DNA of 15,386 nt from a virus, in UHGV virus genome UHGV-0250646; one strand, 5' to 3'. Below are positions 15,184 to 15,386 of the stretch, piece by piece. The position numbers and the translations under genes were made by a program. Under the pieces are notes generated by a model, which made no database searches, was not told the DNA's origin, and saw only the letters and a list, made by a program, of their open reading frames with translations. Numbering within the stretch: position 1 is the stretch's first letter; each line of letters starts with the position of its first letter.

Positions 15184-15245
15184 AAAGAATAAAAAAATCC
15201 CGCAGTGATCGCGGACAGGAACTGCGGGAGAGTTACGAAGATTAA

Positions 15246-15386
15246 GGAAGGTGCGAACAAGTCCCTGATATGAGATCATGTTTGTCATCTGGAGCCATAG
15301 AACAGGGTTCATCATGAGTCATCAACTTACCTTCGCCGACAGTGAATTCAGCAGTAAGCGCCGTCAGACCAGAAAAGAGATTTTCT
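15246..15386 (+). mobile_element. IS5 insertion sequence, left end (element continues beyond the window)
   Basis: From 15246 the sequence GGAAGGTGCGAACAAGTCCCTGATATGAGATCATGTTTGTCATCTGGAGCCATAGAACAGGGTTCATCATGAGTCATCAACTTACCTTCGCCGAC… matches the IS5 terminal inverted repeat and insH-proximal end as I recall it. Preceded by TTAA (15242-15245), consistent with the IS5 YTAR target. Confidence 0.92.
15314..15386 (+). CDS. insH: IS5 transposase InsH, N-terminal 24 codons (3' end beyond the window)
   Basis: ATG at 15314 gives [24 protein letters not shown], the recognised N-terminus of IS5 transposase. Truncated by the window end. Confidence 0.92.

What the first reader, a model, noticed from the sequence alone, without database searches (positions are those of the whole stretch)
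15184..15386. IS5 inserted where the tail-fibre gene J should start
Gene order and spacing follow lambda from Nu1 through I. By that synteny the tip-attachment/central fibre gene J should begin about 60 bp after the I stop, and that is exactly where the IS5 terminal repeat begins (15246). No J-like start is present in the 62-bp I-to-IS5 spacer. The insertion may therefore separate J from the late operon or truncate its 5' end, which would leave the prophage unable to make infectious tails, or it may mark a deletion or rearrangement that removed the tail-fibre and downstream region. insH is co-oriented with the late operon.
Basis: partly seen in the sequence, partly recalled or inferred. Interest (0 to 1): 0.55.

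Follow-up and report, generated by a model that had tools for sequence, protein, structure and literature searches.

The report
IS5 in prophage I–J spacer
An ordinary IS5 insertion sits in the non-coding gap between tail genes I and J of a lambda-like prophage, leaving J intact 281 bp further on but cutting through a small-RNA gene (a PasB relative) on the opposite strand.

Summary
The sequence facts hold. Gene I stops at 15183, a 62-bp spacer ends in TTAA, and 15246-15386 matches the first 141 bp of K-12 IS5 at 141/141, with insH on the + strand.

The inference from lambda does not hold. In this prophage lineage the I-J gap is 343 bp, not 60.

A sister assembly (L028) matches the window with 1 mismatch in 12,122 bp and spans the whole site. 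It shows:
- a complete 1195-bp IS5;
- a perfect TTAA duplication;
- a reconstructed empty site identical to uninterrupted relatives;
- a J start (MGKGGGKAHTPREAKD...) 281 bp past the element. J is identical to an intact relative over all 2,638 nt available and is called at 1157 aa.

So this is a simple intergenic insertion. J is not truncated and nothing is deleted. The window ends inside IS5 because short-read assemblies break there.

The spacer also carries, on the minus strand, a diverged relative of the Hfq-dependent sRNA PasB (EPEC), and probably of EcOnc22-24 (EHEC). IS5 splits this gene at its conserved UUAAUCUUC core. Only its 3' 55 nt lie in the window.

Polarity on J was not tested, but I judge it to be weak. 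The finding is ordinary and of low interest.

The parts
14602..15183 (+). Tail assembly gene I (193 aa from a GTG that overlaps the K stop). An upstream in-frame ATG at 14503 would give 226 aa.
   Evidence: Translation. Sister and relative gene calls carry PF06805 Lambda_tail_I. RefSeq annotates it as 'tail assembly protein'.
15184..15245 (.). The I-proximal 62 bp of the I-J intergenic spacer. The spacer is 343 bp in uninterrupted relatives.
   Evidence: Identical to the first 62 bp after the I stop in L001, L002, L003, L008, L012, L017, L018 and L020-L026. It shows no meaningful similarity to lambda's 60-bp spacer.
15191..15245 (-). The 3' 55 nt of a PasB-family sRNA gene: UUAAUCUUCGUAACUCU, then a terminator hairpin (about 15199-15228), then U7 (15191-15197). 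IS5 has cut this piece off from its promoter and its 5' 33 nt.
   Evidence: PasB coordinates and Northern probe come from PMC8550237 Table S6. PasB lies 6 nt after the I stop in E2348/69. A minus-strand terminator and a TTCACA-16-TATAAT promoter are found in the intact relative.
15242..15245 (.). TTAA, the left copy of the 4-bp IS5 target-site duplication.
   Evidence: TTAA also follows the distal IS5 end in L028. Removing IS5 plus one TTAA restores the L003 sequence exactly, 373/373. TTAA fits the YTAR target motif of IS5 (PMC5009759).
15246..15386 (+). The first 141 bp of IS5, at the transposase-proximal end. The terminal inverted repeat is 15246-15261.
   Evidence: 141/141 identity to K-12 IS5A. 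The complete 1195-bp copy in L028 has 0 mismatches to IS5A.
15314..15386 (+). Start of the transposase gene insH (first 24 codons). The rest lies beyond the window end.
   Evidence: Sequence read. L028 has a 326-aa gene call with PF05598 and PF01609.

Best explanation
A standard IS5 copy transposed into a TTAA site in the non-coding spacer between tail genes I and J of a lambda-like E. coli prophage, and duplicated the TTAA.

In this phage lineage the spacer is 343 bp long. J therefore stays complete, with its own ribosome-binding site, 281 bp beyond the distal IS5 end.

The spacer is not empty. On the strand opposite the late operon it carries a small-RNA gene related to PasB, with a sigma-70 promoter, a body of about 84 nt and an intrinsic terminator that abuts the I stop. 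IS5 landed at nt 30-33 of that RNA, in its most conserved motif (UUAAUCUUC). The promoter and 5' third are now 1.2 kb away from the 3' two-thirds and the terminator, so the sRNA gene is inactivated.

- **Shown:** IS5 identity, both junctions, the duplication, the intact J start, and homology of the spacer to the pasB locus.
- **Inferred:** that the window's own genome has the same distal junction as its sister assembly; that this PasB-like allele is expressed; and that late transcription, which is Q-antiterminated, reads through IS5 so that J is still made on induction.

The window stops 141 bp into IS5 because short-read assemblies cannot cross this multicopy repeat.
For: **IS5 identity**
- 141/141 in the window.
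- The full 1195-bp copy in L028 has 0 mismatches to K-12 IS5A.

**Spacer length in this lineage**
- L003 is 99.90% identical to window 3862-15246.
- Its I-J spacer is 343 bp, and its first 62 bp are identical to the window's.
- The same holds in further loci.
- The 343-bp allele is present at >=80% coverage in 1445 of 5426 complete E. coli genomes.

**The site resolved in sister assemblies**
- L028 (GCA_043198915.1) was found through the window's rare V variant R106L.
- It has 1 mismatch to window 3265-15386, TTAA on both sides of IS5, and an empty-site reconstruction that matches L003 at 373/373.
- Its J ATG is 281 bp after the duplication.
- Its J is identical to L003 J over the 2638 nt available, with no stop codon, and is called at 1157 aa like intact relatives.
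- L027 equals the whole window with 0 mismatches and ends 320 nt into IS5. L030 and L031 end 53 nt in, and L032 ends 26 nt in.

**The sRNA gene**
- PasB maps to NC_011601 1466343-1466261 on the minus strand and is 83 nt long (PMC8550237 Table S6).
- That places it 6 nt after the I stop, inside the I-J spacer.
- The promoter, U-run, UUAAUCUUC core and terminator are conserved among three alleles.
- The intact relative has an 11/12 consensus promoter and a terminator on the minus strand.

**Target site**
- The IS5 target motif is YTAR, and IS5 insertions are biased to non-coding DNA (PMC5009759).

**Polarity**
- A simple scan found no + strand intrinsic-terminator-like site inside IS5.
Against: - The window itself ends inside IS5. 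The distal junction is seen in a sister assembly (1 mismatch in 12 kb), not in the window's own genome. A later IS5-mediated rearrangement specific to the source cannot be formally excluded.
- The PasB-like allele is only 65/89 identical to PasB. No expression data exist for it, and Rfam has no model that matches it.
- No experiment bears on J expression downstream of IS5.
Confidence: 0.85

Rival explanations
1. One reading: IS5 sits at or in the 5' end of J, or marks a deletion or rearrangement that removed J and the downstream tail-fibre region.
For: Lambda's J starts 61 nt after the I stop. The window shows no J sequence before it ends.
Against: - The lineage's own spacer is 343 bp.
- Sister contig L028 has a perfect TTAA duplication, an exactly reconstructable empty site, and a J start 281 bp downstream.
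- Its J is identical to an intact relative's over the 2638 nt available.
Confidence: 0.04
2. The insertion is intergenic but strongly polar. The 1.2 kb of IS5 uncouples J, lom and the side tail-fibre genes from the late transcript, so the prophage makes tail-tip-less, non-infectious particles.
For: - IS insertions within operons are often polar (general knowledge).
- J has no promoter-like site of its own on the + strand in the remaining 281 bp.
- None of 5426 complete E. coli genomes and none of the deposited phage genomes carries this junction.
Against: - Lambdoid late transcription is Q-antiterminated and reads through terminators. This is established lambda biology, not tested here.
- No + strand intrinsic-terminator-like site was found inside IS5.
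- insH is co-oriented and translated, which lessens Rho-dependent polarity (inference).
- Apart from one V and one C substitution, the structural genes match intact relatives.
Confidence: 0.2
3. The junction is an assembly artefact, with a contig end wrongly extended into a repeat, and no IS5 is really present at this site.
For: The window ends inside a multicopy repeat. 141 nt is a typical maximum k-mer overlap (inference).
Against: - The same left junction, at the same nucleotide, occurs in at least five sister contigs: NCBI L027, L028, L030 and L031, and Logan L032.
- L028 spans the whole element with both junctions and a target duplication.
Confidence: 0.02

Closest known systems
IS5 (IS5 family; K-12 copies IS5A etc., transposase InsH)
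   Same: - Identical sequence: 141/141 in the window, and 1195/1195 in the sister contig.
- 16-bp terminal repeats.
- 4-bp duplication of a YTAR site (TTAA).
- Insertion into non-coding DNA, as is typical for IS5 (PMC5009759).
   Different: Nothing about the element differs. Only the insertion site is new: it is absent from 5426 complete E. coli genomes, from deposited phage genomes, and from the viral, metagenome and species-representative contig collections.
Phage lambda I-J junction
   Same: Same gene order from Nu1 to I. Homologous I and J: the J N-terminus here is MGKGGGKAHTPREAKDNLKS, against MGKGSSKGHTPREAKDNLKS in lambda.
   Different: Lambda's spacer is 60 bp and unrelated in sequence. 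This lineage has 343 bp, or 240 bp in a sister allele, with an antisense sRNA gene inside it.
PasB sRNA of EPEC E2348/69 (Pearl Mizrahi et al. 2021, PMC8550237; Zhu, Shabalina & Storz 2026, bioRxiv 10.64898/2026.05.13.724894)
   Same: - Same position, starting a few nt after the I stop inside the I-J spacer.
- Same strand, opposite the late operon.
- Conserved -35/-10 elements, U-run, UUAAUCUUC-like core and terminator.
- Similar length, 83 against about 84 nt.
   Different: - The body is only about 73% identical (65/89 columns).
- The longest exact match I can see in the alignment is about 25 nt, below the 28-nt BLAST word that the 2026 survey used. That survey describes PasB variants as differing by only a few nucleotides. 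This allele was therefore probably not counted (inference).
- Expression and Hfq dependence of this allele are untested.
EcOnc22/23/24 of EHEC O157:H7 Sakai (Tree et al. 2014, PMC4104026, Table S2)
   Same: - Hfq-CRAC peaks on the strand opposite I and J, inside the I-J spacers of Sp15, Sp14 and Sp11.
- About 85 nt on Northern blots, and destabilised without Hfq.
- The Sakai spacers carry a third allele of the same promoter-core-terminator unit.
   Different: The match depends on a coordinate shift of about 137-146 nt between the paper's genome version and NC_002695.2. I calibrated this shift on AgvB only. Taken without a shift, the peaks lie next to the J start rather than on the PasB-like unit. 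The equation is therefore probable, not proven.

Membership tests
IS5 | Terminal inverted repeat GGAAGGTGCGAA(C/T)AAG at the element end | tested here: met
   Window 15246-15261 matches. The distal repeat CTTATTCGCACCTTCC is present in L028.
IS5 | An element of about 1195 bp encoding a DDE transposase (InsH) | tested here: met
   The window holds only 141 bp and 24 codons, all identical to IS5A. Sister contig L028 has the full 1195 bp with 0 mismatches, and a 326-aa gene call with PF01609 and PF05598.
IS5 | 4-bp target-site duplication at YTAR | tested here: met
   TTAA flanks both ends in L028, and the empty site reconstructs exactly. The motif is taken from PMC5009759. The distal copy lies outside the window.
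Lambda-like tail-tip module (K, I, J) | Gene I (PF06805) followed by gene J (central tail fibre / tip attachment protein) in the same orientation | tested here: met
   I is in the window. J is outside the window but present after IS5 in L028, carrying the GpJ Pfam domains and called at 1157 aa.
PasB sRNA family | Location in the I-J spacer of a lambdoid prophage, transcribed opposite to the late operon and ending just after the I stop | tested here: met
PasB sRNA family | Sequence homology to PasB, including its promoter and intrinsic terminator | tested here: met
   65/89 columns are identical over the RNA. The promoter and terminator are nearly identical. Divergence exceeds that of the PasB variants described so far.
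PasB sRNA family | Expressed as an RNA of about 83 nt whose stability depends on Hfq | not testable with these tools
   No expression data exist for this allele. Only a consensus promoter (11/12) and a terminator are predicted.
PasB sRNA family | Intact gene in the window's lineage | tested here: not met
   IS5 splits it at nt 30-33. The window holds only the 3' 55 nt.

The most novel reading that the evidence does not exclude
The I-J spacer of many E. coli lambdoid prophages encodes a single widespread family of antisense Hfq-binding sRNAs: PasB in EPEC, EcOnc22-24 in EHEC, and the allele seen here, which is present in about a quarter of complete E. coli genomes and is unannotated. The family shares a promoter, a UUAAUCUUC core and a terminator, while the flanking body varies. 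In this lineage IS5 has knocked the gene out. It may also have created a chimeric transcript, made of the pasB-like 5' end reading into the IS5 end antisense to insH, with regulatory consequences of its own.
Probability: 0.3. Interest if true: 0.35.

Novelty: already known. Interest (0 to 1): 0.15.

Why it matters
It matters little for biology at large. This is a routine IS5 hop into non-coding prophage DNA, and the alarming reading (loss or truncation of J) is wrong.

Two modest points are worth keeping.
- **Method.** Lambda's spacing cannot be transferred to other lambdoid prophages. In a large share of E. coli genomes the I-J gap is 240-343 bp and holds an sRNA gene.
- **Natural knockout.** This lineage carries a natural IS5 disruption of a PasB-family sRNA, which could serve as a ready-made mutant for anyone who studies that RNA.

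Tried and rejected
**Searches for the source or the junctions**
- Exact-pattern scans for the left junction found nothing in viral, genome or metagenome contigs. That pattern was meant to catch both junctions. It could not, because I wrongly used the IRL sequence for the distal end (IS5's repeats differ at one base).
- A corrected right-junction pattern also found nothing, so the source is not in those collections.
- No complete E. coli genome and no deposited phage genome holds the junction.
- Look-ups with the K and I proteins returned only IS5-free relatives, because those proteins are common. The rare V variant was what led to the sister contigs.

**Identifying the spacer RNA**
- Rfam on the intact spacer gave only sub-threshold hits: STnc310 at E=0.48, and Ysr202 at 17.8 bits against a gathering score of 315. 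I rejected both.
- AgvB and AsxR were considered as the spacer RNA and rejected. They sit at the pR' moron site, not between I and J.

**Other**
- My first guess at K-12 IS5 coordinates fetched IS186 instead. This was corrected.
- The ORFs of 20-113 aa that cross the spacer were not pursued as genes. They lie across a conserved promoter-terminator unit, and no annotation or gene call in any relative includes them.

Full report
**1. The observation**

Read directly, the gene I frame ends with TAA at 15181-15183. The stretch 15184-15245 is 62 bp of non-coding DNA that ends in GATTAA. GGAAGGTGCGAACAAG starts at 15246, and an ATG at 15314 opens [24 protein letters not shown] on the + strand.

I took IS5A from E. 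coli K-12 MG1655 (NC_000913 273955-275149) and compared it with the window. Window 15246-15386 equals IS5A positions 1-141 with no mismatch. The IS5 call, its start coordinate and its orientation are therefore correct, and no J-like start lies in the 62 bp.

The Nu1-to-I gene order is confirmed by the Pfam labels on gene calls in an identical sister contig (L027).

**2. Where J should be**

In phage lambda, I ends at 15444 and J starts at 15505, a 60-bp gap. That gap's sequence is unrelated to the window's spacer.

The proper comparators are the window's own close relatives. L003 (GCA_900449035.1) is 99.90% identical to window 3862-15246.
- In L003, and in L001, L002, L008, L012, L017, L018 and L020-L026, the first 62 bp after the I stop are identical to the window's.
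- The sequence then continues GTGTAAGGAATTATTC..., and the J ATG lies 342-343 bp after the I stop.
- A second allele has a 240-bp spacer.
- The 343-bp allele is found at >=80% coverage in 1445 of 5426 complete E. coli genomes, with no feature annotated under it in any row listed.

The agreement between the IS5 start and lambda's J start is therefore a coincidence. In this lineage J would start 281 bp beyond the insertion point.

**3. What lies beyond the window end**

No complete E. coli genome and no deposited phage genome has the junction. Exact-pattern scans of three contig collections also found nothing.

The window carries a rare substitution in tail-tube protein V, R106L relative to its relatives. 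An exact-protein look-up with this variant found sister contigs.
- L027 (GCA_044020935.1) equals the whole window with 0 mismatches and ends 320 nt into IS5.
- L030 and L031 end 53 nt into IS5, and L032 ends 26 nt in.

The window, which ends 141 nt into IS5, follows the same pattern: a short-read assembly breaking at a multicopy repeat. This last step is an inference.

L028 (GCA_043198915.1, a 37-kb contig) crosses the site. It differs from window 3265-15386 at a single base. It shows:
- the same left junction;
- a complete 1195-bp IS5 with 0 mismatches to K-12 IS5A;
- TTAA on both sides of the element;
- after removal of IS5 and one TTAA, exactly the L003 sequence (373/373);
- the J ATG 281 bp after the distal TTAA, preceded by GGGGAAGG, encoding MGKGGGKAHTPREAKDNLKS (lambda has MGKGSSKGHTPREAKDNLKS);
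- a J sequence identical to L003 J over the 2,638 nt held, with no stop codon, and called at 1157 aa like the intact relatives.

TTAA fits IS5's YTAR target motif, and IS5 prefers non-coding DNA (PMC5009759).

**4. What IS5 actually interrupted**

In the intact relative, the minus strand of the spacer has a near-consensus sigma-70 promoter (TTCACA-16-TATAAT, 11/12). It also has an intrinsic terminator (hairpin plus T7) that abuts the I stop. The insertion point lies between the two.

The literature identifies this unit. Table S6 of Pearl Mizrahi et al. 2021 (PMC8550237) places the Hfq-dependent sRNA PasB of EPEC E2348/69 at NC_011601 1466343-1466261 on the minus strand. It is 83 nt long, and its Northern probe is AATCCCGCAGTGATCGCGGAGCT. 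In that genome I ends at 1466255 and J starts at 1466496, so PasB sits in the I-J spacer 6 nt after the I stop. The first 20 nt of the probe match window 15196-15215.

Alignment of the E2348/69 allele, the window-type allele and a third allele from O157:H7 Sakai shows what is conserved: the -35 and -10 elements, a U-run, a UUAAUCUUC-like core and the terminator. The rest of the body differs, and PasB is identical to the window-type allele in 65 of 89 columns.

The IS5 target TTAA is nt 30-33 of the PasB-like RNA, inside the conserved core. The window keeps only the 3' 55 nt, on the minus strand at 15245-15191. The promoter and the 5' 33 nt lie beyond IS5.

The gene is thus split. That this allele is a functional sRNA rests on homology and predicted signals, not on expression data.

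**5. A probable EHEC counterpart**

Table S2 of Tree et al. 2014 (PMC4104026) lists the Hfq-CRAC peaks EcOnc22, EcOnc23 and EcOnc24. They give about 85 nt on Northern blots and are destabilised without Hfq. The peaks lie in the I-J spacers of Sakai prophages Sp15, Sp14 and Sp11, on the strand opposite I and J.

The paper's coordinates appear to be about 137-146 nt lower than those of NC_002695.2. I judged this from AgvB: the Rfam hit is at 1941920-1941981, against the paper's 1941783-1941835. With that shift the peaks fall on the PasB-like unit. This equation is probable, but it rests on one calibration point. A 2021 review lists the targets of EcOnc22-24 as unknown (PMC7873438).

**6. Consequences for J**

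J is physically separated from I by 1,199 extra base pairs. A simple scan finds no + strand intrinsic-terminator-like site within IS5. insH is co-oriented with the late operon. Lambdoid late transcription is Q-antiterminated, which is established lambda biology and was not tested here.

I therefore expect read-through and at most modest polarity. This is inference, and I leave a strongly polar effect at about 0.2.

**7. Verdict**

The mobile-element call is right and the coordinates are right. The synteny argument is wrong. J is intact and nothing was deleted. The element hit is a PasB-family sRNA gene.

This is a routine event involving a fully known element. Interest is low (0.15) and the kind is already known.

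The most novel reading still open is that the three spacer alleles form one widespread and largely unannotated sRNA family, and that this lineage is a natural knockout of it.

Noticed in passing
L003 11323-11665 (the intact I-J spacer; the window holds only its first 62 bp, 15184-15245): The 343-bp I-J spacer allele occurs in 1445 of 5426 complete E. coli genomes with nothing annotated under it. It carries a PasB-like promoter-body-terminator unit that is about 73% identical to PasB. This allele is probably absent from the published PasB surveys.
   Followed up: partly
L003 about 11500-11640: Compared with the 240-bp allele, the 343-bp allele has about 100 extra bp. These contain a second GC-rich hairpin (AAACCCCGGTATC...GATACCGGGGTTT) flanked by T-rich runs on both strands, and a weak minus-strand promoter-like site (TTGCCA-18-TATCCT). 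This could be a second small transcript or a bidirectional terminator. The only Rfam hits are sub-threshold (STnc310, E=0.48).
   Followed up: no
L034 1634-1727, L035, L036 (O157:H7 Sakai Sp15, Sp14, Sp11): The Hfq-CRAC sRNAs EcOnc22/23/24 of Tree et al. 2014 map to I-J spacers opposite the late operon. After a coordinate shift of about 140 nt they coincide with a third PasB-family allele. PasB and EcOnc22-24 therefore look like one family, a link not made in any of the papers I read.
   Followed up: partly
L006 11323-17688 (GCA_054792675.1): In this relative, IS21-family istA/istB genes lie where J should be, and no J gene is called. That would be a real J disruption, in contrast to the present case.
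   Followed up: no
window 1-403: The window starts at nt 144 of the small terminase gene Nu1, judged from the identical contig L027. The ORF listed at 179-403 is only the tail of Nu1. Both window ends look like assembly or cutting boundaries rather than biological ones.
   Followed up: partly
window 8927 (V) and 4247 (C): Two non-synonymous differences from otherwise near-identical relatives: V R106L and a G-to-R change in the protease/scaffold gene C. The V variant is rare (39 index blocks, against 3646 for the I protein). Of the seven places shown for it, the five that reach the I-J spacer (L027, L028, L030, L031, L032) all carry the IS5 junction.
   Followed up: partly
window 14652-14946 (gene I): Nine clustered nucleotide differences from L003 lie within gene I, in an alignment that is otherwise 99.9% identical. 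This suggests a short recombination patch exchanged with another lambdoid prophage.
   Followed up: no
window 9743-9749: A GGGAAAG slippery heptamer lies near the end of tail chaperone gene G, ahead of T. This is the classic lambda G/GT -1 frameshift site.
   Followed up: no
L028 13229-13256 and 13132-13144 (minus strand): After the insertion, the pasB-like promoter fires into the distal IS5 end. A weak terminator-like hairpin lies about 90 nt downstream, so a chimeric RNA (pasB-like 5' end plus IS5 end, antisense to the 3' region of insH) could be made. This is purely predicted.
   Followed up: no
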